Shown here: piece after piece, positions 10,126 to 64,000 of the stretch
Numbering within the stretch: the first letter of the stretch is position 1
Layout of the letters: every line of letters begins with the position of its first letter
Assembly: GCA_000004695.1 (NCBI GenBank)
Contig: CM000150.2
Coordinates: forward strand, 1,216,001 to 1,280,000
Length of the DNA: 64,000 nucleotides
From: Dictyostelium discoideum
Taxonomy: Eukaryota
Direction of reading: 5' to 3'
Position numbers and translations under genes: made by a program
The notes under the pieces: generated by a model
Databases searched by the model: none
What the model saw: the letters and a program-made list of their open reading frames with translations, nothing else
Told to the model about the DNA's origin: nothing

Positions 10126-10215
<90 letters not shown>

Positions 10216-13200
10216 GCAACAGCAACAACTAATACAGTTCAATAGTGAAGATTTGGAATGTTTAAAAAAACCTATGCAAAATCCATTATCAAACACTCAA
10301 TTATTAAGTTCAAGTAGTGATGAAGAAGAAAACTCTAGTTCAGACCCAATAGATAGTTTTAGTTTCATTAGAAAAGATGATGTTTTGGCACCAACTTATG
10401 ACGGTCCATTAGTTTCAACTATTAAAGATAATAATCAAACATATAAATTACAATCAGTTGTAGATTTACTAAATAGTAAACTAGATATGATGGAGTCATC
10501 TTATCAAAATCAAATTAGTATCATGTTATATTCTCAACAAAAATTACAAAAAGAAGTAGCATCTTTTAAATCTTATATTGAGAGTTGTTCTCTAAAACCA
10601 TTTGGGACCCTTAAAATACCCGCCTCTGTAAATCAACCACAATTAAATACCACACCCAAACCAAACAATCAAATAATAGAAACAAATCAACAACCACCAC
10701 CACCACCACCACCACCACAAGATACCACTAAAAAGAAAAATTCATATGTAAATAAGAAATCCTTAAAAACCAATTCAGGAAAAACTGATGATTGTCATTC
10801 TTTTGAAACCTCTGATTCAGAAAATGATGGTATAGAGGAAAGCTCTACCACTAATCCTTTTTATTTTCAGAGTTACAACTCCTACACATCCACCTATCGT
10901 GATGATGATGACAATTATGACGATGACAATGACAATGACGACGATGACAATTATGACGATGATGACAGCACCACCACCACAACCACAAAAGCACTCAAAC
11001 GACGAGGTACAGATTCAAACTCAAATCTTACCGATTACGAAATTTATGATAAATCAAGTGATGATATCGACAATTATGATGACAGCTCAAAGGAATCTGA
11101 AATTGAAAAGAAAGCTAGAGGATTTTCTGATAGAGAAGTTATAAAAGACTCAATAAGAAAAAGAAGAAGAAAGAGATACCTCTACAAATCATCAGATGCT
11201 ACCACAGTGAATACCGTCAGATCCTCATATGAAGATTTAGCAACAACAAAAACAACAACAACAACAACAGAAATACCCTCTACAAATCAATTCTCCACAT
11301 ATTTCAATAATAGTCAAAACGGTCACAACAAATTTGTACAAACAAATTTTGATTTCAAAAAAATAGAACTTTCTGTCGTATCTGATGTGGTACCAGATTT
11401 CATTTCATTTTATGTTTATGATGTTGTCATTTCTCATCCATTTCATGTAAGTCATTGTTATTATTATTATTATTATTATTATATTTATTTATTAATATTA
11501 AATTTGAATATATTAATTTTTTTTTTTTTTATTTTTTTTTATTTTACAGGCACATACATATTCACATAGAGGTAAAAAATATTCATTTTCAAACTTTTTA
11601 TTATATTCAAGTGAACAACCATTACCAACAACAACGACAACACCACCAGTTATACATACTCTAAATTCAGTTGGTGATCATTTTGGTGTAGGATTAATTA
11701 AAAGAAGTTATTGTAGAATTAGTAAAAGTGATTTTCAAAAGATGATAACATTTCATAATTGTTTCTTTTCACAAATTCTAGGTCAAAAATATTTAGAGCA
11801 TTCTGATCACATTGATAGAATGTTTATGATACCAGAAGTAAAAAGTTTATCAAATCCAACTCTATCACTATTTGATACTTTGTTGGAGTTATTAGAATTT
11901 GATGGGTTACCAGATGATTATGATCTATTTCAAGGTGATGATTTAGATTTTCAAAAAATCATGGATAACCTTTTCACTGGAAAGGTAACAGTATCTAGAT
12001 CCAATCATTTTGCAATCTGTAGAAGTGTAGACTTTCAATCATTATCTGAAATTACAATGTCACAAAAACGTCAAGATATTCATAATTTAAATCATTTTAA
12101 AAATATGTTAAATAAATTAAATTTTTATAAAAATCAAAATGAAATTCAAGAAAATCAAGAAAATCAAGAAAATCAAGAAAATCAAGAAAATCAAGAAAAT
12201 GAATATGAATATGAAAATGATTATGAATATGAATATGAAAATGAAAATGAAAATGAAAATGAAAATGAAAATGAAAATGAAAATGAAAATGAAATTGAAA
12301 TTGAAAATGAAAATGTAAATGAATATGAAAATGAATATGAAAATGAATATGAAAATGAAAATGAAATTCAAATTGAAAATGAAAATGAATATGAATATGA
12401 AAACGAATATGAATATGAAAACGAAAATGAAGGTAAAGAAAAAGAAATACAAGATTTATTAATGATTGATTTAAAAAAAGAGAATATTGATAGTGATGAA
12501 AGTGAACATAGCTTTAATTATATTAGTGATCTTAATAATGATTATAGTGATAGTTATGATGATAATAATAATAATGAATTTGAAAATAATATAAAAATTA
12601 AAAATGTATCACTTCCACCATTAGTTTGTTCTCATGCATGTGCTAGAACTAATGAAGATTATTGGAGATTAAAATGTATTTTATTTTTTGATGAAAATGA
12701 TCAAGTCGAAAAACCTTTAGATTGGAAAGTTTATCAACAAAGTAACCCAAGTTTTAAAGAAATCAATTTAGTTACATTTTTAAAATATTATAAACATTTT
12801 CAAAAGGATCCATTAACTGTTAGAGTATTAGGTATAACGGATTTTATTCATTCATATGCAAAGGTTGCAATTTTACCCTTTTTTTCAGAAATGGAATGGT
12901 CTTTGAGAGTGGCACATTTCAATAGTAAAGTGACATGTTTAAAATCGGCAAAGATTTTAAGAGAGGTATTCACCCATCCCTCAACTAAAACCATTCCAAA
13001 GAGAACACTGACCCAATTGGGTATCTTTGGCAAATATCAGCCTTATTTGGGCGACAATCAAAGGTTGGAGTTTTTAGGCGACTCAGTTTTAAAGTTGGTC
13101 AGTACTATATACCTCTTTTTCAAGTATCCCAAAATGAGTGAAGGTTTCTTGTCACAAACTAGAAGTGATTTCACAAAGAATGATCATTTACTCGACGTTT

Positions 13201-14143: not shown

Positions 14144-15512
14144 CTAATAAATTGGAAAACTATCATCTATAGATTCATTCCAACCTAATAATCCATCTTT
14201 AATATGTAAAAGTTTAAATTTATCTCTAAATTCTTTTAATTTTTCATCTAAAATCTTTACAGCATCTTGTGATTTATTTCCTCTTCTACAAACTAAATAA
14301 ACTGATAATTCATCACTGGCGTCTCTATTTTCGTTATTATTATTATTATTATTGTTATTTTCAACTTTTTCTTTAATTAATTTTTCAATAATTTCAATTG
14401 ATTCTTTTTTATCAATTTCTTCAATTGGAATATCTTTTTTTAAAAAAAAAATATATTAATAAACTTTTCTAAAAACTTTGTTTTTTTTTTTTTTTTTTTC
14501 CAAAAAAAAAATATTTAAACTTACTATTTGAATTTGGTAATGAACAAATATCAAATTGAATTTTTGGTCTAACATCAATTAATAAATGATTATTATTATT
14601 ATTTTTAATTGATTGATTAAATTGTTCAACAGTAATTATTAAAGTTTTATCAACTCTATCATCAACTTTACCAGCTGATTCAGAATAATTACTTTGACAA
14701 AATTGAGTGTAATCAATTAATTGAGTTACTGTTGGTTTATCACCACAAACATTACAACCAGATTGTTTACCTCTAATTCTAACAGTTCTAAATACAGCTG
14801 ACATACCATCATAAATTAATAAACGACCAGATAATACACCCTCTTTATTATTAGTGAGTATTTTAATGACTTCCAATGCTTGTAAACTACCAATTACGCC
14901 AACGATTGGACCTAGTACACCACCATCGGAGCATTTTGTAACGGTTTCGACTGGTGGTGGTGTTGGGAATATACAACGATAGCATGGTCCGTTATTGTAA
15001 TTGTAACAGGTTATTTGGCCCTCCCATTTCAATGCGCTGCCACTTACCAATGGTTTGCCAGTCAATACACATGCATCATTTACTAAATATCTAGTTGCGA
15101 CATTATCAGATGCGTCTACTACTATATCATAGTTTTTGATTATCTCCATCGCCGTTTCGGATGTGAATGTTGTTTCGTATGTATTTACTTTAATTAAACT
15201 ATTAAGTTCAGAAATTGTTTTCGATAATGAAACTGCTTTTGAAATACCTTTACTTGATTCACGATGTCCAATTTGTCTATGAAGATTTGAAATTTCAACT
15301 GTATCATAATCAACCAATCCTAATGTACCAATACCTGCTGATGATAAATATAATGCAACTGGACAACCTAATCCTCCTGCTCCAATAATCAATACTGATG
15401 AATTGCATAATGACATTTGACCACTAACTCCAATATCTGGTGTAATTAATTGTCTTCCATATCTTTCAATTTCATTTGGTTTTAATGTATGTTCTTTAAT
15501 ATATTTTTCCAT
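14144..15512 (-). CDS. mocs3: MOCS3/Uba4-type adenylyltransferase and sulfurtransferase (ThiF/MoeB domain + C-terminal rhodanese). CDS minus join(14525..15512, 14144..14433).
   Basis: The protein contains a ThiF fold (GRQLITPDIGVSGQ…IIGAGGLGCPVALYL), the zinc Cys pairs CYRC and CNVC, and a rhodanese domain (LIDVRP…ICSLPNS | NIPIEEI…VYLVCRRGNKSQDAV). The rhodanese domain is split by a phase-1 gtaagt…aaag intron. The ATG is the MEKY… methionine at 15512. Confidence 0.85.
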
Positions 15513-47018: not shown

Positions 47019-48188
47019 ATGGGTCCAAAAGGTAAAAAGAAAGGTCAATCATTTGATGATTCAGATGAAGAAATTAATAATAAAAAAGGTGGAAATAAAA
47101 AAGGACAACAATTAGAAGATGATATTCCTCAACCAGTTAAAAAGGGTGGAAATAAAAAAGGTCAAAGAGGTAAACAAGACTCTGATGATGAACCAGAAAA
47201 TATTCCTCAACCAGTAGCAAAGAAGAGTAATAATAAAAAAGGTCAAAGAGGTAAACAAGATTCAGATGATGAACAAGATGAAATTCCTCAACCACAAAAG
47301 AAAGGTGGTAAACCAGCTCCACAACCACAAAAGAAAGGTGGTAAACAACAAGATTCAGATGATGAACAAGATGAAATTCCTCAACCAGTTAAAAAAGGTG
47401 GTAAACCAGCTCCACAAAAGAAAGGTGGTAAACAACAACAACAACAAGATTCAGATGATGAACAAGAAGAAATTCCTCAACCAGTCAAGAAAGGTGGTAA
47501 ACCAGCTCCACAAAAGAAAGGTGGTAAACAACAAGATTCAGATGATGAAGAAGATGAAATTCCTCAACCAGTTAAGAAAGGTGGTAAACCAGCTCCACAA
47601 AAGAAAGGTGGAAAACAACAAGAATCTGAAGATGAAGATGAAGAAGATGAAGTTCAACAACCAGTAAAGAAAGGTGGTAAAAATGATAAAAAGAAAGGTG
47701 TTAAACATGTTGAAGAAGAGGAAGAAGAAGAGGAAGAAGAAGAAATTGAACAACCAGTTAAAAAAGGTGGTAAAGCTCCAAAACCAAAGAAAGGTGGTAA
47801 GGGTAGTAAACAAGAATCTGAAGATGAAGAAGATGATGTTCAACAACCAGTAAAGAAAGGTGGTAAAAAAGATAAAAAGAAAGGTAGTAAACATGTTGAA
47901 GAAGAGGAAGAAGAAGAAGAGGAAGAGGAAATTGAACAACCAGTTAAAAAAGGTTCAAATAAAAAAGATCAAAAGAAAGGTGGTAAAGGTAAACATGTTG
48001 AAGAAGAAGAGGAAGAAGAAGAAGAAGAGGAAATTGAACAACCAGTAAAAAAAGGTTCAAATAAAAAAGATCAAAAGAAAGGTGGTAAAGGTAAACAACA
48101 ACAAGAATCTGAAGATGAAGAAGAGGAAATTCAACAACCAGTAAAGAAAGGTGGTAAAAAAGATAAAAAGAAAGGTAGTAAACATGTT

Positions 48189-48220
<32 letters not shown>

Positions 48221-48424
48221 AGAAATTGAACAACCAGTTAAAAAAGGTGGTAAAAAAGATAAAAAATCAAGTTTGGAAGATAGTATGTCAGAACTTTCAA
48301 TTAAATCAAAGAAAGGTGGTAAGGGTAAACATGTTGAAGAAGAAGAAGAACAAGAACAAGAAGAAGAAGAGGAAAAACCAAAATCAAAATCAAATAAAAA
48401 AGATAAAAAGAAAGGTAAACATGT

Positions 48425-48457
<33 letters not shown>

Positions 48458-50447
48458 AGAAAAACCAAAATCAAAATCAAATAAAAAAGATAAAAAGAAA
48501 GGTAGTAAACATATTGAAGAAGAAGAAGAAGAAGAAGAAGAAGAAGAAGAAGAAGAAAAAGAAGAAGAAGAAGAAAAAAAAATGACATTAGCAGAAATTA
48601 GAGCAGCAAAAAAAGTTAAAAAAGTTGATAAAAAAGAGAAAAAGAAAGAAAAAGAGAAAAAGAAAAGAGATGAACAAGAAGAGGATGCATTCGAACTTGC
48701 AAAAAAGAAACAACAAGAAGAGATTGATTATGATAATATTGATATTGATGATGTACCAGGTAAAGATGCACCAACCTATGTTCATTTGAAATCATCAGAA
48801 GGTTTAAGAAGTAAAATTGGTAATGATATTAAATTTGATAATTTAATACTTTCAGTTCCAGGTAGAATTTTATTAAATAATGCATCACTTACACTTGCCT
48901 ATGGTCAAAAGTATGGTTTTGTTGGTAGAAATGGTATTGGTAAATCAACATTGGTTAAAAAGATTGCAATGCGTGATGAAATTACCATTGCACCACATCT
49001 TCGTGTATTGTATGTAGAACAAGAGGTAACTGGTGATGATACAACTCCATTGGATTGTGTATTGGCAGCTGATGAAGAAAGAAAATGGTTACTTGATGAA
49101 GAGAAAGTTTTAACAGAATTGGAAAAAGTTAACCCAAGTTGGCAATTTGATCCACGTCAAAAGAGAAATTACTCACTTCGTGATATTTATGATCGTCTTA
49201 AAGAGATTGATGCCGATAAAGCATCGATTAGAGCTGCAAACATTTTAATTGGTTTAGGTTTCACATTTGAAGAGATATCTGTAAAGAAATCTAGAGATTA
49301 TTCAGGTGGTTGGAGAATGAGAATTGCATTGGCAAGAGCACTCTTTTGTAAACCAGAAGTATTATTACTTGATGAACCTTCAAATCATTTAGATTTACAT
49401 GCTTGTGTTTGGTTAGAGAAATATTTAAATCAATGGGATCGTACATTATTGGTTGTATCTCATGAAGCTTCATTCCTTAATGAGGTTGTTGATAATATCA
49501 TTTACATTCATGATCAAAAGTTGGATCAATACAGAGGTAACTATGATGCATTTATGAAACAAAAATCTGTAAATCTTAGATCAAAAGAAAAGGAAAAAGA
49601 TAAACAAGATAGAAAATTAAAGAAAATGAATGAATTCATTACAAAGAATAAGAATAATACTCAAGCTAAACAAGCAGCATCTCGTGCAAAGAAAATGGAG
49701 AAAATTGAAACCATTGAACTTGAGCGAGAGGATGCTTCACTCGTTGTAGATTTCCCACAACCTGAACATTTAACACCACCATTATTGGTATTTAAAGATG
49801 TTTGCTTCGGTTATGAAGGTAGACCAACTATGTTTAAGAAATTGGATATTGGTATCGATATGGATTCAAAGATTGCTTTGGTTGGTATGAATGGTGTTGG
49901 TAAGTCAACTCTTATGAAACTAATGAATGGTGATCTTCATGAAACCACTGGTTACATTGAAAGAAGTAGAAAAATGCGTGTAGCTAGATTCTCTCAACAT
50001 TTTGTCGATCAATTGGATACCACTATGACACCAATCGAATATTTCCAATCGAAATTCAATAATCCACCAGTTCAACAAATTCGTAATCATTTAGGTAGAT
50101 TTGGTATTTGTAATTCCTTACCATTACATAAAATTACAACTTTATCTGGTGGTCAAAAGAGTAGAGTCATTTTAGCTGAATTAGCTTGGGCTGAACCTCA
50201 TATTCTCTTATTGGATGAACCAACAAATCATCTTGATATTGATGCTATCGAAGCTTTAGCTGAAGGTATTAATGCTTTCACTGGTGGTGTAGTTTTAATT
50301 TCTCATAATCAACATTTAATTAATTTAATTGCTGAACAAATTTGGGTTGTTAAAAAAGATGGTACAATTTATTTATATCCAGGTACTTTTATGGATTATA
50401 AAAATGAAATTTCAAGAGAAATTGATAATATGGTTATTAGAAGTTAA
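47019..50447 (+). CDS. ABC transporter F family (ABCF1/ABC50-like soluble tandem-ATPase) with a ~520-aa Lys/Glu-rich tandem-repeat N-terminal extension, 1142 aa, single exon.
   Basis: Two ABC cassettes are present. Cassette 1 has Walker A GRNGIGKST, signature LSGGWRMRIALARAL and Walker B LLLDEPSNHLD. Cassette 2 has GMNGVGKST, LSGGQKSRVILAEL and LLLDEPTNHLD. There are no TM domains. The N-terminus is an array of about 14 units of the type IPQPVKKGGKPAPQKKGGKQQDSDDEQDE or HVEEEEEEEEEEIEQPVKKGSNKKDQKKGGKGK. It is probably the abcF1 orthologue. Confidence 0.9.
47080..48590 (+). repeat. Coding tandem-repeat array (about 14 units of 60-100 nt) in the ABCF N-terminal extension.
   Basis: There are repeated ORF-internal units cctcaaccagt(t/a)aa(a/g)aaaggtgg(t/a)aaaccagctccacaaaagaaaggtgg(t/a)aaacaacaagattcagatgatgaa…. 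The many alternative-frame and antisense ORFs in the track (47137..47939, 47860..48426, 48301..48785) are by-products of this array. Confidence 0.85.
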
Positions 50448-55013: not shown

Positions 55014-55526
55014 TTTTTTTTTTTTTTTTTTGTTGTTTTTTCAAAATATTATAATATAACCAAAATAATATAAAAAAGAATAATAAAAAATATCTTTCTA
55101 TAAAAAACAACAGGTTTTATTTTTATTTATATGGGGACACAAAAATAAACCACCCAAAAATACACAAAAAAAAAAAAAAAAGTTTTAAATCAAAAAAACA
55201 ATTACTTTTTTTTTTAAAATATTTTGACAGGATGTAAAAATTTAAGAATATTTTTATTTATTTTTTAAAATAGGACAATACCTAGCAGTTTTGTTTTTTT
55301 TTTTTTTTTTTTTAATATAAAAAAATTAAAAAAAAAAAAAAAAAAAAAAGTATAAATTTAAGGTTAAAAGTTAAACTTTTAAATTAAAAAAAAAAAAATA
55401 AGAGTTAAAACAAAAATAAAAAAATAAAATAAAAAAAAAAAATTAAAAAAAAAAATAAAATAAAATAAAATAAAATAAAATTAAAAATTATTTTATTAAT
55501 TTATAAGTTTTTATAATAAATTTAAA

Positions 55527-57446
55527 ATGAAATTAATATCAGTATTAATTACATTTTTATTAGCTACAGTGATTTATTCACAAAGTAAAAAAAATTTTAC
55601 AATTTGATTTTTATTAATTTTATAAACTAAATTTGAAACTAATTAGCCAAACAAATTTTTTTTTTTTTTTTTTTTTTTTTTATTTCTTTAATTTTTTTTT
55701 TAAAAAAATAAAATTAGCCAGTCCAGCAACTTTAAAATTTACTGTTCAAGTTTATGATCAATTCCCAGGTTTTAATAATAATTTTGAACCTGGATTAGGT
55801 AATGCTATTACCGGTTTAATTAAATCAACTTTAAATTCAACATCGCGTGTACCTGAATTGGTTTCAACAGAAGCTCGTATTGTTAAAAATATTAATGGTG
55901 GGATTATAAACCCATCATTATTCCCATACTTTTTCAGTCCACAACAAGATTCAAGTTTACCAGGTCAAAATTCACCATTAAGTCTTGATTTAATTTTCAC
56001 ATATGATACAACTAGAAAAATTTATGTTTATGATAATCAAAACTTTTTCCCAAGTAAGTAAATAAATTATAATAATTTTATTTTTTAAAAATTTTAATAT
56101 TGATTAAATTTTAATTTAATATTATAGTTGATAATCAAGGTTTTGATGTTGATCCAGCAAAAAGAATTTATTTAAATGAGAAAAAAACATATCATAATTA
56201 TCATTTTTGTATGAAAATGAATACTGTTTTTACTTATAAAGGTTATGAAGTATTTAATTTCCGAGGTGATGATGATGTTTGGTAAGTAATTATTTAAAAA
56301 AAAATATATTTTAAATAATTAATAATATTAACATGATTTTTATTTTATTTTTTATTATTTTAATTATTATTATTTTTTTTATTTTTTTTATTTTTAAAAA
56401 AAAAGGGTATTTATTAATAATAAATTAGTTATTGACCTTGGTGGTTTACATAGTCCAATTGGTACAAGTGTAGATACAATGACTTTAGGTTTAACAATTG
56501 GTAATTCTTATAATTTTGATCTATTCTTTTGTGAACGTCATACTGGTAAGTTTTATTATTTTTTATTTTTTTTTTAAAAAAAAGGTAATTTTATTTTATT
56601 TTATAAATATTTATAAAAATTATTTTTTTAGTTGGTAGCACAATTAAAATTGAAACCAATTTATTATTTTATTGTCCATTTAAAGATTATTGTGGAGTTT
56701 GTCAAGGTGATGGTAGTTCATGTTGTAATCCATTAACAACTTGTAATGATAATAATCAATGTACAATTGATTCATGTCCATCAGCAAATACAATTATTGG
56801 TCCAGGTTCAATCCCTAATTATTGTTTTCATACACCAAAAATTAATACAAATCCAATTGATATTTGTTTCAATTATCAATGTAATTCATCAACTGGTAAT
56901 TTCGATCCAATTCCAATTCCATGTCTTGATAGAAGTTCTGAATGTTTATCAACAATTGGTTGTAATTCTACTGTTGGTTGTCAATATGAAAGTATTTGTA
57001 ATTCAAATGTTTGTAATATTCAAAATCAATGCTCATCAAATGGTACTTGTGTTCCAAAATCATCAAATGACTGTGGAATTGAATTAGATGGTCAAGTTGA
57101 TAAATGTAAAATTTATTCATGTGATTCAAATGGAGGTGTTGGTTGTATTAAAGAAGATAAATGTAAACCAAGTAGTAATCCATGTATTTCAACTCAATGT
57201 AATGCTACTAACGGTCAATGTTATGAAACTCAAATTCCAGGTGATATTTGTGATTGTGGTTGTGGTATTCCAGAAAATAAATGTAAAGTATCATGGTGTA
57301 CACCAGAAGGTATTTGTCAACCAAAATTCAAATCTGAAATTGATGATAATAACTCTTGTACATTAGATTCATGCGATCCATGTACTGGTATTATCTCTCA
57401 TATGACCGCACCACAATGTTTAAGTTGTAATCAATGTTCAAATTAA
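55527..57446 (+). CDS. PA14-domain secreted protein with a C-terminal Cys-rich repeat region (PsiA-like family), copy 1. CDS join(55527..55584, 55718..56053, 56128..56281, 56406..56545, 56631..57446), about 500 aa.
   Basis: The signal peptide is [19 protein letters not shown]. The PA14 core spans three exons (…[29 protein letters not shown]|[20 protein letters not shown]…[21 protein letters not shown]|VGSTIKIE…). The last exon has about 40 Cys in CxxxC / CNxxNxC repeats (…[30 protein letters not shown]…CLSCNQCSN*). All donors are GTAAGT and all phases are consistent. The Cys-rich exon is absent from the ORF track because it contains no start codon. Confidence 0.7.
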
Positions 57447-57941
57447 TTTTTAAAAAATAAAATAAAAATGAGAAATAATTAAAATAATTAAAACAAATAA
57501 ACATTAAAATGATATTTAGGTTTTAAATTTAAATTCTAAAATCACTATTAATTCTAACAATTTTAATCATTTTTATTTTTTTAAATATTTTTAAAAATTA
57601 AAACCATAATTAATAATTATTTTTTTAATTAAATAATATTTAACAAGATGTGACAAGAATTGAAATTTTTGGCACAATTTGGTCAAGTCACTAATTAAAG
57701 TTACCCCATCATGATATTTTTTAGGTGAGATGTGGGGTGGGATTGAATTAAGGGTTGTAAGACAGTTTTTTTTTTTTTTTTAATTTGATGGTTTTTTTTT
57801 TTTTTAACTTAAACTTTTTTTTTTAAGTTGGGAAACCCATAAGTGGGAAAAAAAAAAATTAAGAAAAAAAATAAAAAAAAAAAAAAAAAATTGATAATAA
57901 TTAAATTATTTTAAATTGGTTTATTTAAAGCACAGTGATAG

Positions 57942-57974
<33 letters not shown>

Positions 57975-58008
57975 GATTATTTATATCAAACTAAATAATA
58001 TATATATA

Positions 58009-58884
58009 ATGAATAATAACTTATTATCAGTATTAATTACATTTTTATTATCTACAGTGATTTATTCACTAGGTATAATTTTACAATATTATTTTTTTAA
58101 AAAATTATTATTTTATAAACTATTTTTACTAATTTTTTTTTTTTTTTTTTTTTATTTTTTTTTTTTTTTTTTTTATAAAAAAAATTAGCTAATCCAGCAA
58201 CTATAACATATTCTGTTCAACTGTATGACCAATTCTCAGGCTATAACAATAATTTCCAAACTAATGTAACTGGGGCTAGAGTTACTGGTTTAGTTAAATC
58301 AACTTTAAATTCAACGACTCGTGTACCTGAATTAGTTTCAACATCAAATGGTGGTTTAAATGATGCAGGTCATATTTTGAATCCATCATTATTCCAATAC
58401 TTTTTCAGTCCACAAATAAATTCAAGTTTACCAGCTGAAAATAATCCTTATTCTTTTGATTTAGTTTTCACATATGATAAAAATAGAAATACATATGTTT
58501 ATAATAATGAAGATTTTTTCCCAAGTAAGTAAATAAATTTTAATTTTTAATAAAATACAAATTTAAAATATTAATAAAATAATATAGTTGATCGTAAAGG
58601 TTTTGATATTGACCCAGAAAAAAGAATTAATTTAAATGGTGCAACCTATCATAATTATCATTTTTGTATGAAAATTAATTCTGCTTTTACCTATCAAGGT
58701 TCAGAATATTTCAATTTCCAAACTGACCATGAAGTTTGGTAAGTAATTGTTTTAAAAAAAAAACTATAAAATTATAAAATCAATAATAAATAATATTTTA
58801 AGTGATAAATATTAATAATATAATTTTTTAATTATTTATTAATATTATAATTATAATTTTTATATTTTTATTTTTATTATTACT

Positions 58885-58929
<45 letters not shown>

Positions 58930-59386
58930 ATTTTAATAGGGCATTTATTAATAATAAATTAGTTATTGATCTTGGTGGTATACATGGTCCAATAGCTGAA
59001 AGAATTAATACAAAAACTTTAGGTTTAACTATTGGTCGTATATATAATTTTGATTTATTCTTTTGTAATCGTCAAACTGGTAAGTTATATTATTTAAAAA
59101 AAAAAATAAAAAAAAAAAAAAAAAATAATATAAAAAAAAATTTTTTTTGAATTGGATAAATAATGTAAAAAATAAATTAAACCATAATTTTTAATTTTTT
59201 TATTTGTATTTTTTTTAATTTTTACTATTTTTATAAAACTAATTTTACTATATAATTAATTTTTTTAAAAAAGTTGGTAGTAAACTTAAAATTGAAATAG
59301 ATATAACTTATTCATGTCCATTTAGAGATTTTTGTGGAGTTTGTTTAGGTGATGGTAGTTCTTGTGCAGGTGGAAGAATTAAATAA
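58009..59386 (+). CDS. PA14-domain protein, copy 2, truncated: it ends just after the PA14 domain and lacks the Cys-rich tail. CDS join(58009..58072, 58189..58524, 58588..58738, 58940..59079, 59274..59386), about 267 aa.
   Basis: The exon structure is the same as copy 1. The signal peptide is [22 protein letters not shown]. The last exon reads [37 protein letters not shown] and then diverges into unrelated, non-AT sequence. Sequence subtype B is shared with copy 4 ([29 protein letters not shown]). Confidence 0.6.
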
Positions 59387-59509
59387 AGTCTATTCCTGTA
59401 GATTCATAAAAGAAATTATTATCGGGGTTGGAAAGTTAGTAAAAATTTGAAAAAAAATTCTTTAAAGGGCTACGCCTTAGGAAATAGACCTAACAAGCCA
59501 CCAAAGATG

Positions 59510-59542
<33 letters not shown>

Positions 59543-59815
59543 AAATTTTTTAAAAAAATTGTGACAAGAATTGAACACTTGACTTTAATTTTATTGTAGG
59601 TTCGATTCTCAGATAAATGAAATCAATATCTATTTTAATTTTTTTTTTTTTTTTAAATAATAGCCCAATTGTTAGTTGCTTCTCCTTGAGATACTAGATC
59701 TCATTACAATATCCATTTTAATATTAATGATTAGTTTTTTTATTTAATTTTGTTTGAAACTTTAGTTTCAATAGAATTATTTTGTAGGTAATTTTAAAAA
59801 TAAAAAAAATATAAT

Positions 59816-59854
<39 letters not shown>

Positions 59855-60123
59855 TTTAAAAAATTAAATCAATTAGAAAATAATGGAATTTGAATTAAAA
59901 ATTAATAATGATAATTATAAAAATAATAAATAATGGACACTTTAAAAATTAAAAACATTATTTTTTGAAACCCAAAATTTTTTTTTTTTAATTTTAAAAA
60001 AAAAAAAAAAAAGATGGCAATGAAGTGTGATCACACCGTATTTCTCATTAAAAAAAAAGAATATTTTTAAAGTCGATAACAAATTATTTTTTTTTTTTTT
60101 TAATATACAAAATCTTAAATACC

Positions 60124-60221
60124 AAAAAAAAGGGCGATGTTTCATATAAAGTTTCCAGACGGTTTTTTTTTTATTAAAAAAAATCAAAAAAAATTAAATC
60201 ACGGCTTTTTTTAGATTTTTT

Positions 60222-60261
<40 letters not shown>

Positions 60262-60350
60262 TCGCCATGAATTATGATCAATATTGATGTTGGACGGTTT
60301 TTTTTTTTAAAAAAATCTAATACAAAATTAAATCACTTCTTTTTTTTTTT
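60124..60350. repeat. Two to three imperfect ~125-bp direct repeats containing gat(c/g)gc(c/a)atg … gacggttttttttt … aaattaaatcac(g/t)(g/t)ctttttt.
   Basis: Units lie at ~60124-60215 and ~60252-60350, with a weaker copy at ~60010-60090. They sit in the spacer between PA14 copy 2 and copy 3. Confidence 0.6.
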
Positions 60351-60790
60351 TTTTTTTTGTTTTTAATTTTTGTTTATTAAGTAATTTGAAAAAAAAAAAG
60401 AAATCGTTTTTTTTTTTTTAGTTTGAACATTGGGGTGTTTTAAAAAATAAGTGGAGATATTTAGAATTTGATAAAAAAAAATTAAAAATAACCAATGATT
60501 GTGAAAAAAAATAAAAAAAAAACTTTGTTTCCAAAGATAAAAAATTATTCTATTAAATTGATATATTATTTGAAAAAAAAAAAAGTAAAGGTTGAACATA
60601 CTGAAGATTTTTAAAAAAAAAAAAATTAAAATAAATAATTTTAAAGTTTTGATTGGTTAATTAAAATTAATTTTAATTATATTTTAAAAAAAAAAAAAAA
60701 ACTGTTAATTTAGTTTAGTATAAATAGTTTAGTAAAAAAAAAAAAAATTCAGTTTGTTTTAAAATAAAAAACTAAACAATAATATTTAAA

Positions 60791-61559
60791 ATGAAATTAT
60801 TATCAGTATTAATTACATTTTTATTAGCTACAGTGATTTATTCACAAAGTAAATAAAATAATATTGTTTTTTCAAATTATTTTTATAAAAACTAATATTA
60901 AAACTAATTTTTTATATTTTATTTTCTTTTTTTTTTCTTTTTTTTTAAAAATTAGCTAATCCAGCAACTTTAACATTTACTGTTCAAGTTTATGATCAAT
61001 TCCCAGGCTATAATAATAATTTCCAAACTAATGGTGCTGGTGCAAGAGTTACTGGTTTAATTAAATCAACTTTAAATTCAACAACTCGTGTACCTGAATT
61101 GGTTTCAACAGCTACTGGTGGTTTAAATGGAGTAGGTCTTATATTGAACCCATCATTATTCCCATACTTTTTCAGTCCACAACAAGATTCAAGTTTACCA
61201 GGTCAAAATTCACCATTAAGTCTTGATTTAGTTTTCACTTATGATACTACTAGAAATATTTATGTCTATAATAATCAAAACTTTTTCCCAAGTAAGTAAA
61301 TTAATAACAAATTTGTTTTTTTATAAAAAAAATAATATAAAATTTATATTAATATAAAATTACAATAAAATATAAAATTAAAATTAATAAAATAATATAG
61401 TTGATAATCAAGGTCTTGATGTTGATCCAGCAAAAAGAATTTATTTAAATGGTGCTACATATCATAATTATCATTTTTGTATGAAAATGAATACTGTTTT
61501 TACTTATAAAGGTTATGAAGTATTTAATTTCCAAGGTGATGATGATGTTTGGTAAGTAA

Positions 61560-61600
<41 letters not shown>

Positions 61601-62869
61601 AGTATTAATTTTTTATTTATTATTATAACTATTTTTAATTTTATTTTTTTATTTTAAAAGGGTATTTATTAATAACAAATTAGTTATTGATCTTGGTGGT
61701 GTACATGGTCCATTAGCTGCAAGTGTTGATGCAACAACATTAGGTTTAACAATTGGTAATTCTTATAATTTTGATTTATTCTTTTGTGAACGTCAAACTG
61801 GTAAGTTTTATTATTTTTTATTTTTTTTAAAAAAAAAAACCTATTAATTTATTTTATTAATTTTTTTATTTAATTTTTTTTTTTTTAAAAAAAAGTTGGT
61901 AGTACAATTAAAATTGAAACCAATTTATTATTTGTTTGTCCATTTGAAGATTATTGTGGAGTTTGTCAAGGTGATGGTAGTTCATGTTGTAATCCATTAA
62001 CAACTTGTAATGATAATAATCAATGTACAATTGATTCATGTCCACCAGCAAACACAACTATTGGTTCAGGTTCAATCTCTGATTATTGTATTCATACACC
62101 AAAAATTAATACAAATCCAATTGATATTTGTTTCAATTATCAATGTAATTCATCAACTGGTAATTTCGATCCAATTCCAATTCCATGTCTTGATAGAAGT
62201 TCTGAATGTTTATCAACAATTGGTTGTAATTCTACTGTTGGTTGTCAATATGAAAGTATTTGTAATTCAAATGTTTGTAATATTCAAAATCAATGTTCAT
62301 CAAATGGTACTTGTGTTCCAAAATCATCAAATGACTGTGGAATTGAATTAGATGGTCAAGTTGATAAATGTAAAATTTATTCATGTGATTCAAATGGAGG
62401 TGTTGGTTGTATTAAAGAAGATAAATGTAAACCAAGTGAAGATAAATGTCATGTCGTATCATGTGATTCATTAACTGGTTCATGTATTACAACTCCACTC
62501 GAAGATCCATTAGCTGGTTTACATTTATGTTCAATTGCACGTTGTAATTCATCAACTGGTGAATTTACATATGATCCAATTATTTGTACACCAAGTAGTA
62601 ATCCATGTATTTCAACTCAATGTAATGCTACTAACGGTCAATGTTATGAAACTCAAATTCCAGGTGATATTTGTGATTGTGGTTGTGGTATTCCAGAAAA
62701 TAAATGTAAAGTATCATGGTGTACACCAGAAGGTATTTGTCAACCAAAATTCAAATCTGAAATTGATGATAATAACTCTTGTACATTAGATTCATGCGAT
62801 CCATGTACTGGTATTATCTCTCATATGACCGCACCACAATGTTTAAGTTGTAATCAATGTTCAAATTAA
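60791..62869 (+). CDS. PA14-domain secreted protein with a Cys-rich tail, copy 3 (subtype A, like copy 1), about 550 aa. CDS join(60791..60848, 60955..61291, 61400..61551, 61661..61800, 61896..62869).
   Basis: It is about 90% identical to copy 1 at the nucleotide level across exons, introns and the 3' flank. It is about 50 aa longer, through an extra Cys-repeat block (…[53 protein letters not shown]…). Confidence 0.7.
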
Positions 62870-63367
62870 TATTTTAAAAAAAAATAAATAAAAATAAGAA
62901 ATTATTAAAATAATTAAAACAAATAAAAATTAAAATGATATTTGAATTTGAAATTTAATTTTTAATTTCATAATTTAATTTACTAATTATTTTTTACAAT
63001 TTTAATTATTTTTATTTTTTTAATAATTTTAAATATTTATTAATTAAAAAAAATTTAACAAGATGTGACAAGAATTGAAATTTTTGTTCACTTGGGACAA
63101 TTTGTTCAAGTCACTAATTAAAGTTACCTCATCATGACCTTTTTTGTGTGAGATGTGGGGAGGGGTTGAATTATGGGTTGTAAGATATTTATTTTTTTTT
63201 TTTTAACTTGATGTTTTTTTAAACTAAATTTTGGAAATCCATATGTAAGAAAAAAAAATAATAATTAAATTTATTTAGTATAGAAAAATTTTATTTTAAA
63301 TTGATTTATTTAAAGCAAAAAAAAAAAAAAAAAAAAAAAATTAAATTTATTTATATTAAACTAAATA

Positions 63368-64000
63368 ATATTTATAATGAAATTATCAGTATTATATTTT
63401 TATTATCTACAGTGATTTTTTCACAAGGTATAGTTTTACAATTTTATTTTTTAAAAATTATTTTTAAAATTATTACTGCTCTTTAACTAATTTTTTTTTT
63501 TGTTTTTTTTTTTTAGCTTATCAAGACATTTTAACATTTAATGTTGAACTTTATGATCAATTCCCAGGTTATAATAATAATTTCCAAACTAATGGAACTG
63601 GTGGTAGAGTTACTGGTTTAGTTAAATCAACTTTAAATTCAACAACTCGTGTACCTGAATTAGTTTCGACATCAATTGGTTCAAATGATGCAGGTCATAT
63701 TTTGAATCCGTCATTATTCCAATACTTTTTTACTCCACAATTTGATTCAAGTTTACTAGGTGACAATTATCCATATGATTTTGAATTAGTTTTAAAATAT
63801 GATAAAAATAGAAATACATATGTTTATAATAATGAAAACTTTTTCCCTAGTAAGGAAATAAATTTTAATTTTTAAAAAAATACAAATTCAAAATATTAAT
63901 AAAATAATATAGTTGATGGTCGAGGTTTTGATATTGACCAAAAAAAAAGAATTTTTTTTAATGGTACTATATATCATAATTATCATTTTTGTATGAAAAT
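63368..64000 (+). pseudogene. PA14-domain gene, copy 4 (subtype B), partial at the window end. The exon-1 reading frame is broken by a 4-nt deletion; downstream exons are intact.
   Basis: Exon 1, atgaaattatcagtattatatttttattatctacagtgattttttcacaag|gtatag, translates MKLSVLYFYYLQ* versus [21 protein letters not shown] in copy 2. Exon 2 (63517..~63850; …[50 protein letters not shown]…) and the start of exon 3 are open and conserved. Confidence 0.5.

What the first reader, a model, noticed from the sequence alone, without database searches (positions are those of the whole stretch)
59340..59640. Copy 2 is truncated exactly at the PA14 / Cys-rich boundary by a block of non-AT, structured DNA
Copy 2 follows copy 1 through …CGVC(L/Q)GDGSSC, then reads AGGRIK* and enters sequence with unusual GC content. 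The block is bounded by an inverted repeat: gtctattcc (59389) … ggaaatagac (about 59480). About 100 nt downstream is a tRNA B-box-like GGTTCGATTCTC (59607) next to ttgtgacaagaattgaacacttgac. This looks like an insertion or rearrangement that removed the Cys-rich exon. Dictyostelium has tRNA-targeted retroelements (TRE/DGLT families), so the B-box-like motif near a breakpoint is suggestive. I could not fold a complete tRNA here.
Basis: partly seen in the sequence, partly recalled or inferred. Interest (0 to 1): 0.6.

Follow-up and report, generated by a model that had tools for sequence, protein, structure and literature searches.

The report
Truncated psiS gene with small insertion
Copy 2 is the already annotated Dictyostelium gene psiS, a short paralogue that lost its cysteine-rich tail through an old 0.9 kb deletion and carries a separate 104-base insertion just after its stop codon; no tRNA gene or tRNA-targeted retroelement is involved, so this is ordinary gene-family turnover.

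Summary
The window is Dictyostelium discoideum chromosome 1. Copy 2 (58009-59386) is exactly the annotated 267-aa protein psiS, and copy 3 is psiB.

- **Truncation.** Homology to the full-length copies stops after ...GDGSSC (59365), in the middle of the last exon. There is no separate "Cys-rich exon".
- **Deletion.** With bases 59387-59490 removed, the junction AATTAAATAA|TAACAAG matches the 3' flank of copy 1 (57627-57647), just upstream of a 16-mer shared by all three intergenic regions. So about 903 nt (Cys-rich coding sequence plus 180 nt of flank) were deleted. An 11-nt filler bridges the join, and the old flank supplies the last codons, the stop and an AATAAA.
- **The block.** The "non-AT block" is a separate 104-nt insertion with a 7-bp inverted repeat one base inside each end (about 0.2% by chance). 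It looks MITE-like, but its source is unknown.
- **Age.** Tail and block are shared by the copy-2 and copy-4 lineages in other strains, so the events are old.
- **Not supported.** No tRNA gene was found. The B-box-like motif is at chance frequency. The A-run is separated from the block by flank sequence. Folding is no better than shuffled sequence.
- **Decay.** psiS carries premature stops in one strain.

The parts
58009..59386 (+). psiS (copy 2). The coding sequence has 5 exons (58009-58072, 58189-58524, 58588-58738, 58940-59079, 59274-59386) and gives 267 aa: a signal-peptide-like N-terminus, a PA14/fibro-slime domain and a 6-residue tail.
   Evidence: The conceptual product is 100% identical over 100% of its length to 'Protein psiS' (XP_647478.1, UniRef100_Q55FQ5). 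PA14 covers residues 123-245 and Fibro_Slime covers 154-242.
59274..59365 (+). Part of the last exon that is still homologous to full-length copies 1 and 3. It ends at ...[11 protein letters not shown].
   Evidence: blastn matches 59315-59365 to 56673-56723 (90%) and 61937-61987 (88%). Also read directly from the sequence.
59366..59376 (+). 11-nt junction filler gcaggtggaag (codons A-G-G and part of R). Its source is unknown.
   Evidence: TGTGCAGGTGGAAGAATT has no other match in the window with up to 3 mismatches. It shows no similarity to the deleted interval.
59377..59386 (+). AATTAAATAA, former 3'-flank sequence of a full-length psi gene. It now supplies the last codons, the TAA stop (59384-59386) and an AATAAA (59382-59387).
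   Evidence: With the block removed, it aligns to 57627-57636 in the flank of copy 1. Only 8 of 2000 shuffles reach the score. Empty and filled sites are compared.
59387..59490 (+). 104-nt insertion (the 'block'), 30% GC. It has terminal inverted repeats GTCTATT (59388-59394) and AATAGAC (59483-59489), plus CC/GG across a 1-nt bulge. It has no ORF and no RNA-family match.
   Evidence: Absent from the homologous flank after copies 1 and 3 in AX4, after copy 1 in L002 and L003, and after the 554-aa copy in L004. Present after copy 2 and copy 4 in L002 and L003, partly deleted in two of these. A terminal inverted repeat of 7 bp or more occurs in 0.19% of shuffles. No other copy exists in the window or loci. 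Rfam finds nothing.
59491..59509 (+). Flank remnant TAACAAG-ccaccaaag-ATG. TAACAAG and ATG are colinear with TAACAAGATG at 57641-57650 after copy 1.
59510..59540 (+). A31 homopolymer. It is not contiguous with the block and is an ordinary intergenic A-run.
   Evidence: The window holds 54 A/T runs of 20 or more bases, and 19 of 30 or more. The run is interrupted in L003 and absent after L002 copy 4.
59560..59575 (+). 16-mer TGTGACAAGAATTGAA, part of the intergenic module shared by the 3' flanks of copies 1, 2 and 3. The other occurrences are at 57649-57664 and 63064-63079.
   Evidence: 3 exact matches against 0.23 expected. Variants with 1-3 mismatches occur in L002, L003 and L004.
59599..59610 (+). 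B-box-like GGTTCGATTCTC. This is a chance resemblance inside the diverged intergenic module.
   Evidence: 5 matches with up to 2 mismatches against 4.55 expected. It aligns to GGTGAGATGTGG after copies 1 and 3. No tRNA was found.
56724..57626 (+). The interval in copy 1 that corresponds to what copy 2 has lost: Cys-rich coding sequence 56724-57443, stop 57444-57446, and 180 nt of 3' flank.
   Evidence: tblastn of the Cys-rich region and the junction alignment.
57627..57664 (+). 'Empty site' after copy 1: AATTAAATAA-tatt-TAACAAGA-TGTGACAAGAATTGAA.
60791..62869 (+). psiB (copy 3), a full-length paralogue of 552 aa. It serves as the reference for the intact structure.
   Evidence: The product exactly equals 'Protein psiB' (XP_647479.1, Q55FQ4).

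Best explanation
psiS is a short member of a tandem array that alternates full-length (F) and short (S) psi genes: copy 1 (F), psiS (S), psiB (F), copy 4 (S), and a copy-5 F relic beyond the window.

An ancestral full-length gene suffered a deletion of about 903 nt. It ran from just after the ...GDGSSC codon to about 180 nt past the original stop codon. The ends were joined through 11 nt of filler, gcaggtggaag. Translation now runs into the former 3' flank, AATTAAATAA. That flank supplies ...IK, a TAA stop and an overlapping AATAAA.

The result is a secreted protein with the PA14/fibro-slime domain but without the Cys-rich stalk.

Immediately after that stop codon lies a separate 104-nt insertion (59387-59490). 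It has 7-10 bp inverted repeats at its ends and exon-like GC content. It is most simply read as a small non-autonomous DNA-transposon-like (MITE-like) element or another captured fragment.

Both changes predate the duplication of the F-S unit, because copy 2 and copy 4 share them. Since then the short copies have drifted. They evolved under partial constraint and have been knocked out independently in several strains.

What is shown and what is inferred:
- Shown: the gene identity, the breakpoints, the empty versus filled sites, the sharing among paralogues and strains, and the absence of tRNA genes.
- Inferred: that the block was inserted rather than lost from the F flanks, that it is transposon-like, and that the AATAAA is used.
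For: - **Identity.** The product is identical to annotated psiS, and copy 3 is identical to psiB.
- **Break inside the exon.** Homology ends at 59365, within the last exon.
- **No relic.** No Cys-rich coding relic lies downstream.
- **Junction.** With the block removed, AATTAAATAA|TAACAAG aligns to 57627-57647, directly upstream of the shared 16-mer. Only 8 of 2000 shuffles reach the score. The 16-mer has 3 exact copies against 0.23 expected.
- **Empty sites.** The block is absent after copies 1 and 3 in AX4, after copy 1 in L002 and L003, and after the 554-aa copy in L004.
- **Filled sites.** Tail and block are present after copy 2 in L003 (90% identity over 59274-59507). The left half is present after copy 2 in L002. 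Copy 4 of L002 has the whole block (81%), and copy 4 of L003 has its left part.
- **Age.** dS between the copy-2 and copy-4 lineages is 0.08-0.13.
- **Terminal inverted repeat.** It sits at the independently defined ends of the insertion. An inverted repeat of 7 bp or more occurs in 0.19% of composition-matched shuffles. L003 has G at the position 5' of GTCTATT, which extends the repeat to GGTCTATT/AATAGACC in the likely ancestor.
- **Constraint and decay.** dN/dS is 0.30-0.40 among copy-2 orthologues. The L003 orthologue has two TTA-to-TAA stops. Copy 4 is dead in AX4-like L001 through a 3' deletion and in L003 through two stops.
Against: - The source of the block is unidentified. There is no second copy in the 64 kb window or in about 78 kb of related loci, so its multi-copy nature is unproven.
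- No clear target-site duplication can be defined. TAA...TAA flanks it only if the terminal A/C mismatch is accepted.
- The insertion boundaries are uncertain by about 4 nt, because 'tatt' in the empty site could be matched to TATT inside the left arm.
- With only paralogous flanks as reference, loss of the block from the F lineage cannot be excluded.
- The 10+7 nt flank match rests on AT-rich sequence.
- The block evolves no more slowly than synonymous sites: about 90% identity in the left half and 64-79% in the right. Nothing argues for a function.
Confidence: 0.6

Rival explanations
1. A tRNA-gene-targeted retroelement (TRE5, TRE3, DGLT-A or Skipper-2) was guided by a nearby tRNA gene or B box, inserted here, and removed the Cys-rich part. 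The block plus A-run would be its 5'-truncated 3' end.
For: - An A31 run lies 19 nt after the block.
- The TRE5-A 3' C-module is 134-137 bp, similar in size to the foreign DNA. 5'-truncated TRE5-A insertions often come with target-site deletions (PMC3159450).
- There is a B-box-like 12-mer at 59599-59610.
Against: - TRE5 elements lie about 50 bp upstream of tRNA genes and TRE3 elements about 100 bp downstream. DGLT-A lies 13-33 bp upstream and Skipper-2 8-23 bp downstream (PMC5391098 and PMC5006619). No tRNA gene or pseudogene is found in the window or in four related loci.
- The B-box match is at chance level and aligns to a non-B-box paralogous sequence.
- The A-run is separated from the block by flank-derived TAACAAG...ATG. 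It is absent after L002 copy 4.
- Terminal inverted repeats are not a feature of non-LTR elements.
- The stop codon precedes the block.
Confidence: 0.03
2. A single repair event. One double-strand break was repaired by end joining, with a deletion of about 0.9 kb and capture of about 125 nt of unrelated filler DNA (tail and block together). The inverted repeat and the AATTAAATAA match would then be coincidences of AT-rich sequence.
For: - Tail and block always occur together in every short copy seen.
- No other copy of the block was found.
- When the boundaries are ignored, 7-bp inverted repeats anywhere in the 142-nt segment occur in 23% of shuffles.
Against: - The colinear AATTAAATAA / TAACAAG / ATG / 16-mer matches to the empty flank are reached by only 8 of 2000 shuffles.
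- An inverted repeat exactly at the ends has a chance of about 0.2%.
Confidence: 0.2
3. The block is ancestral to the intergenic module and was lost from the flanks of the full-length copies. It is not an insertion in the short-copy lineage.
For: Only paralogous flanks are available as the 'empty' reference. The cluster shows many deletions: the right half of the block in L002 copy 2, the 3' end of AX4 copy 4, and most of copy 2 in L004.
Against: - Every F flank examined lacks it cleanly at the same point: four strains or lineages, including D. cf. discoideum.
- Its GC content (30%) is unlike the 12% of surrounding noncoding DNA.
- The inverted repeat at its exact ends fits insertion better.
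Confidence: 0.1
4. The block is a functional structured RNA or DNA element, such as a 3'-UTR regulatory hairpin or a small non-coding RNA gene.
For: It is retained in two paralogue lineages and several strains. Its 5' and 3' ends can pair.
Against: - Fold energy equals that of shuffles.
- No pair covaries, and the closing stem is broken in L003.
- There is no Rfam match even at E up to 10.
- Divergence is neutral or faster, with a 14-nt indel and half-deletions in L002 copy 2 and L003 copy 4.
- The AATAAA at the stop codon suggests that much of the block may lie beyond the poly(A) site. This last point is an inference.
Confidence: 0.04

Closest known systems
Dictyostelium psi (PsiA-like) PA14 / fibro-slime protein family: psiS (Q55FQ5) and psiB (Q55FQ4)
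   Same: Copy 2 is psiS itself. It has the same signal-peptide-like N-terminus, PA14/fibro-slime domain and CGVCxGDGSSC motif as its full-length neighbours, and the same four intron positions.
   Different: It lacks the roughly 290-residue Cys-rich (Dicty_CTDC-type) C-terminal region. It ends in a 6-residue tail built from 11 nt of filler and former 3' flank. In length it resembles the bacterial fibro-slime proteins of about 250 aa that dominate the homology list.
MITEs: small non-autonomous DNA transposons with terminal inverted repeats
   Same: A discrete insertion of about 104 bp relative to paralogous empty sites. It has 7-10 bp inverted repeats at its ends, no coding capacity, and a base composition unlike the surrounding intergenic DNA.
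   Different: No second copy has been seen. The target-site duplication is ambiguous (TAA...TAA at best). No link to a known Dictyostelium DNA transposon could be tested. [quoted passage not shown]
tRNA-gene-targeted retroelements of D. discoideum (TRE5-A/B/C, TRE3-A-D, DGLT-A, Skipper-2)
   Same: Only superficial: a nearby A-run, a size similar to the 134-137 bp TRE5-A C-module, and a 12-mer resembling a B box.
   Different: There is no tRNA gene and no ORF. The A-run is not contiguous with the block. The block has inverted-repeat ends, and the B-box resemblance is at chance level.
Birth-and-death evolution of tandem gene arrays through deletion and unit duplication
   Same: An F-S two-gene unit of about 5.26 kb is duplicated (55448-58900 against 60734-64000). 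Truncated members are independently pseudogenised in different strains, and a copy-5 relic has an internal deletion at a microhomology.
   Different: Nothing unusual. This is the standard pattern.

Membership tests
TRE5 / TRE3 non-LTR retrotransposons | Located about 50 bp upstream (TRE5) or about 100 bp downstream (TRE3) of a tRNA gene, in a fixed orientation (PMC5391098, PMC5006619) | tested here: not met
   ARAGORN finds 0 tRNA genes in the 64 kb window and in L001-L004. Rfam finds none at gathering score, and none at E up to 10 in 58000-62000.
TRE5 / TRE3 non-LTR retrotransposons | A functional B box in the target | tested here: not met
   GGTTCGATTCT (59599-59609) has 2 mismatches to GGTTCGAATCC. 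The window holds 5 such matches against 4.55 expected. There is no T-arm context, and the motif aligns to GGTGAGATGTGG in the paralogous flanks.
TRE5 / TRE3 non-LTR retrotransposons | The 3' end of the element runs directly into its A-tail; ORF1/ORF2 or recognisable UTR modules are present | tested here: not met
   The A31 run starts 19 nt after the block, beyond flank-derived TAACAAG...ATG. No ORF is present. Sequence identity to the A, B and C modules could not be tested because no TRE sequence was available.
TRE5 / TRE3, DGLT-A, Skipper, DIRS-1, Tdd, DDT, thug (Dictyostelium repeat library) | Nucleotide similarity to the family consensus | not testable with these tools
   No Dictyostelium genome or repeat library can be searched. 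An attempt to reach DGLT-A loci through OCR'd RNase H and integrase fragments returned no Dictyostelium protein. A full-text search for six 14-16-mers from the region found nothing.
DGLT-A / Skipper-2 LTR retrotransposons | Located 13-33 bp upstream or 8-23 bp downstream of a tRNA gene; LTRs of a few hundred bp (PMC5006619) | tested here: not met
   No tRNA gene. The inserted DNA is only 104 nt and has no direct terminal repeats.
MITE / non-autonomous TIR DNA transposon | Terminal inverted repeats at the exact ends of a short insertion | tested here: met
   GTCTATT and AATAGAC each lie 1 nt inside the boundaries set by the empty-site alignment. A terminal inverted repeat of 7 bp or more occurs in 0.19% of shuffles.
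MITE / non-autonomous TIR DNA transposon | Target-site duplication flanking the element | tested here: inconclusive
   TAA|AGTC...GACC|TAA is possible, but the empty site already holds both TAAs separated by 'tatt', and the other copies differ at the junction.
MITE / non-autonomous TIR DNA transposon | Multiple dispersed copies in the genome | not testable with these tools
   There are no further copies in the window or in L001-L004, about 142 kb in total. The rest of the genome could not be searched. Hits to a 21-mer in the metagenome and prokaryote collections were chance matches with unrelated flanks.
Tdd-4 / Tdd-5 (Ginger2) DNA transposons | 5-bp target-site duplication and inverted repeats of 260-297 bp (PMC2836005) | tested here: not met
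   The inverted repeats are 7-10 bp. The flanking pentamers AATAA and TAACA are not a duplication.
psi / PA14 fibro-slime protein family | PA14 / Fibro_Slime domain | tested here: met
   PF07691 at E = 1.6e-12 over residues 123-245. TIGR02148 at E = 1.1e-32 over residues 154-242.
psi / PA14 fibro-slime protein family | C-terminal Cys-rich region with Dicty_CTDC repeats, as in psiB | tested here: not met
   Absent from psiS, and no relic lies downstream.
Structured non-coding RNA | Stability beyond shuffled sequence, covariation, or an Rfam match | tested here: not met

The most novel reading that the evidence does not exclude
The 104-bp block bounded by inverted repeats belongs to an undescribed low-copy MITE family of D. 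discoideum. Its insertion, together with an adjacent deletion that it may have provoked, created a new lineage-specific gene, psiS. This gene encodes a secreted PA14-only protein and was kept under purifying selection (dN/dS about 0.3-0.4) before decaying in some strains.
Probability: 0.2. Interest if true: 0.35.

Novelty: new member of a known kind. Interest (0 to 1): 0.15.

Why it matters
It matters little beyond annotation.

- It explains how the annotated short protein psiS arose from a full-length psi gene. Its stop codon and probable poly(A) signal are recycled 3'-flank sequence.
- It removes a false lead: no tRNA-targeted retroelement is involved.
- If the block proves to be a MITE, this would be a small example of transposon-associated gene remodelling in a compact, AT-rich genome.
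- The psi array would be a convenient case of birth-and-death evolution that is visible between D. discoideum strains.

Tried and rejected
- **tRNA or other RNA gene.** ARAGORN on the window and four loci, and Rfam at gathering score and at E up to 10, found nothing.
- **Stable structure.** RNA folds of both strands and a DNA fold had z-scores of about 0. The alignment fold showed no covariation.
- **Block derived from the locus itself.** Smith-Waterman alignment of 59366-59495 against the Cys-rich regions and flanks of copies 1 and 3, and against the copy 2-3 spacer, on both strands, scored no better than shuffles.
- **Other copies of the block.** None in the window or in L001-L004.
- **Collection scans.** A scan of metagenome contigs with the conserved 21-mer gave 5 hits, and a scan of prokaryote genomes gave 3 Chryseobacterium hits. 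All were chance matches with unrelated flanks.
- **Literature string search.** A full-text search for six 14-16-mers from the region found no paper.
- **Route to Dictyostelium retroelement DNA.** I searched with DGLT-A RNase H and integrase fragments taken from a paper supplement. Only animal and metagenome Ty3/gypsy proteins came back, so the route failed. The TRE reverse-transcriptase alignment in that supplement is an image.
- **Coding potential of the block.** At most about 27 codons are open in one frame, and indels of 6 and 14 nt in copy 4 break that frame (read from the sequence).
- **Splicing to a downstream Cys-rich exon.** No such exon exists.
- **Target-site duplications.** I looked for duplications around the block plus A-run and for a Helitron-like A|T insertion. 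Neither fits.
- **Literature on psiS.** Nothing relevant was found.
Full report
**What the locus is**

The window is AT-rich Dictyostelium DNA. Assembling the five exons of copy 2 (58009-58072, 58189-58524, 58588-58738, 58940-59079, 59274-59386) gives a 267-aa product. It is 100% identical over its full length to 'Protein psiS' of D. discoideum AX4 (XP_647478.1, Q55FQ5). Copy 3 (60791-62869) is exactly 'Protein psiB' of 552 aa.

psiS has a PA14 domain (residues 123-245) and a fibro-slime domain (154-242). psiB has in addition a Cys-rich region with a Dicty_CTDC repeat. So the truncated gene model is already the annotated one.

**Checking the observation**

- Copy 2 follows copies 1 and 3 through ...[11 protein letters not shown] and then reads AGGRIK*.
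- DNA homology stops at 59365.
- In copies 1 and 3 the Cys-rich part continues in the same exon. The break is therefore inside an exon and not at a 'Cys-rich exon'.
- No Cys-rich relic lies between 59366 and 60790 (tblastn best E = 5.2; controls 0 and 7e-129).
- The block has 30% GC. The cluster's introns and spacers have 12% and its exons 29%.
- The inverted repeat is real: GTCTATT at 59388-59394 and AATAGAC at 59483-59489.
- The segment folds no better than shuffled sequence, with z = 0.04 (+ strand RNA), -1.19 (- strand RNA) and 0.00 (DNA).
- The B-box-like GGTTCGATTCTC is at 59599-59610. Matches with up to 2 mismatches to GGTTCGAATCC number 5, against 4.55 expected.
- ARAGORN and Rfam find no tRNA or other RNA gene.

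**Comparative evidence**

The same locus was fetched from four other assemblies.

| Locus | Source | Short-copy state |
|---|---|---|
| L001 | AX4-like, 99.5% identical | copy 2 block identical to the window; copy 4 truncated by a 3' deletion |
| L002 | divergent D. discoideum strain | copy 2 intact (left half of block only); copy 4 intact with whole block |
| L003 | divergent D. discoideum strain | copy 2 and copy 4 each carry two stop codons |
| L004 | D. cf. discoideum | only a 5' relic of a short copy |

None of the four loci has a tRNA gene.

- **An F-S array.** The array alternates full-length and short genes: copy 1 (F), psiS (S), psiB (F), copy 4 (S), and a copy-5 F relic. The F-S unit is duplicated with a period of about 5.26 kb.
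- **The tail and block are shared.** The L002 orthologue of psiS (P0002, 265 aa) ends ...GDGSSCASGRIK. Tail and block are present after copy 2 in L003 (90% identity over 59274-59507) and, as the left half only, after copy 2 in L002. Copy 4 of L002 has the whole block (81%), and copy 4 of L003 has its left part.
- **The events are old.** They predate the copy-2/copy-4 split, for which dS is 0.08-0.13.
- **The block is not conserved beyond neutrality.** The left half is about 90% identical between copies and the right half 64-79%. It also carries indels and half-deletions.

**Anatomy of the junction**

The 3' flanks of copies 1, 2 and 3 share an exact 16-mer, TGTGACAAGAATTGAA, at 57649, 59560 and 63064. 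That is 3 matches against 0.23 expected.

When bases 59387-59490 are removed, the copy-2 sequence AATTAAATAA|TAACAAG aligns to AATTAAATAAtattTAACAAG at 57627-57647. This lies immediately upstream of the 16-mer after copy 1. Only 8 of 2000 shuffles reach the score.

The same 'empty' arrangement is seen after copy 3 in AX4, after copy 1 in L002 and L003, and after the 554-aa copy in L004.

Three conclusions follow:

1. The gene was truncated by a deletion of about 903 nt (equivalent to 56724-57626 in copy 1). The deletion removed the Cys-rich coding part, the stop codon and 180 nt of flank.
2. The join is bridged by 11 nt, gcaggtggaag, of unknown source.
3. The last codons, the TAA stop (59384-59386) and an overlapping AATAAA come from former 3'-flank sequence.

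The 'non-AT block' is therefore a separate 104-nt insertion that lies after the stop codon. It is not the agent of truncation.

The inverted repeat lies one base inside each end of this independently delimited insertion. A terminal inverted repeat of 7 bp or more, allowing an offset of 0-3 nt at each end, occurs in only 0.19% of composition-matched shuffles. In L003 the base 5' of GTCTATT is G, which extends the repeat to GGTCTATT/AATAGACC.

This is the signature of a small element with terminal inverted repeats (MITE-like). However, no target-site duplication can be fixed and no second copy was found in about 142 kb. The Dictyostelium genome and repeat libraries could not be searched with the tools available.

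**The retroelement hypothesis**

According to the literature, TRE5 elements lie about 47-50 bp upstream of tRNA genes and TRE3 elements about 100 bp downstream. DGLT-A lies 13-33 bp upstream and Skipper-2 lies 8-23 bp downstream (PMC5391098, PMC5006619). TRE5-A also needs an intact B box.

None of this is met here:

- There is no tRNA gene, and the B-box resemblance is at chance level.
- That 12-mer aligns to GGTGAGATGTGG in the paralogous intergenic module, followed in both cases by the same T-run.
- The A31 run is not contiguous with the block. Flank-derived TAACAAG...ATG lies between them.
- The A31 run is one of 54 A/T runs of 20 or more bases in the window.
- The run is absent after L002 copy 4.

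The size similarity to the 134-137 bp TRE5-A C-module (PMC3159450) is noted, but its sequence could not be compared.

**Is psiS functional?**

Among copy-2 orthologues dN/dS is 0.30-0.40, and between the copy-2 and copy-4 lineages it is 0.5-0.76. This suggests past but weak constraint.

The short copies are decaying in several places:

- The L003 orthologue carries two TTA-to-TAA stop codons, in exons 1 and 4.
- Copy 4 is dead in the AX4-like assembly. A deletion joins exon 4 to the copy-5 relic.
- Copy 4 is also dead in L003, through two stop codons.
- D. cf. discoideum retains only a 5' relic of a short copy.

This is ordinary birth-and-death turnover of a tandem family.

**Verdict**

The sequence-level observation is largely right. 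It is wrong about the mechanism (a tRNA-targeted retroelement), about the role of the block, and about the exon structure.

The case is an annotated gene with an explicable origin, so interest is low. The one open point is where the 104-nt insertion came from. A single BLASTN against the D. discoideum genome would settle it.

Noticed in passing
window 63378-64000; L001 15270-16510: Copy 4, the paralogue of psiS, is a pseudogene in the AX4-like assembly. After ...ggtggtatccatg in exon 4 (L001 about 16200) the sequence jumps into the copy-5 relic, so exon 5, the tail and the block are lost. The NCBI gene call in that assembly fuses psiB with copy 4 into a 769-aa product.
   Followed up: partly
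L002 9545-9830; L001 16250-16500: A fifth psi copy survives only as a relic. An N-terminal exon-2 fragment (...GVTGLIKST) is fused to the C-terminal Cys-rich end (...[26 protein letters not shown]...). The internal deletion appears to sit at the short repeat (a)atcaact. The L002 gene prediction P0003 (332 aa) splices copy 4 into it.
   Followed up: partly
L003 4566-5813 (copy 2) and 10145-11192 (copy 4): In strain GCA_054859385.1 the psiS orthologue carries two TTA-to-TAA nonsense changes, in exons 1 and 4. Copy 4 also carries two in-frame stop codons. Both short genes are therefore dead in that strain while the full-length copies stay intact.
   Followed up: yes
L003 11766-15114 and 17468-17712, against L001 16809-20195: The HSP90-family gene next to the psi array is inverted in L003 relative to AX4-like L001 and to L002. 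A segment of about 250 bp is present as an inverted duplicate at the far side. This is either a strain-specific inversion or an assembly difference.
   Followed up: partly
window 59996-60355: The region upstream of psiB contains a local direct duplication: 59996-60033 matches 60243-60280 (89%), and 60158-60221 matches 60293-60355 (81%). The repeated motifs are gatggcaatgaagtg... and cagacggttttttt...aaattaaatcac. The region is 91% conserved in L002. These may be promoter elements.
   Followed up: no
window 57690-57765 and 63105-63185: A GC-richer intergenic module, ...gtcactaattaaagttacc(c/t)catcatga...gtgagatgtgggg(t/a)ggg(a/g)ttgaatta(a/t)gggttgtaaga followed by a T-run, lies about 250-300 nt upstream of the start codons of both short copies. 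It is a candidate shared promoter element. Its diverged counterpart after psiS contains the B-box look-alike.
   Followed up: partly
L004 14353-14821: D. cf. discoideum keeps only a 5' relic of a psi copy (exon 1 and intron 1), followed by an inverted fragment of exon 2 (14712-14821), between two full-length copies. Its first copy (310 aa) has an internal deletion.
   Followed up: no
window 59452-59876, against L002 4175-4440: The spacer after psiS is rearranged between strains. L002 lacks the right half of the block, the A-run, the 16-mer and the B-box look-alike. It carries the remaining segments (aattgtt..cttgag..., ttgtgatttattcaagat...) in a different order.
   Followed up: partly
window 47019-50447: A single-exon ORF of 1142 aa. 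It looks like an ABC-F type ATPase by its Walker and signature motifs in the translation. Its N-terminal 500 residues are made of highly repetitive K/E/D-rich units (...IPQPVKKGGK...).
   Followed up: no
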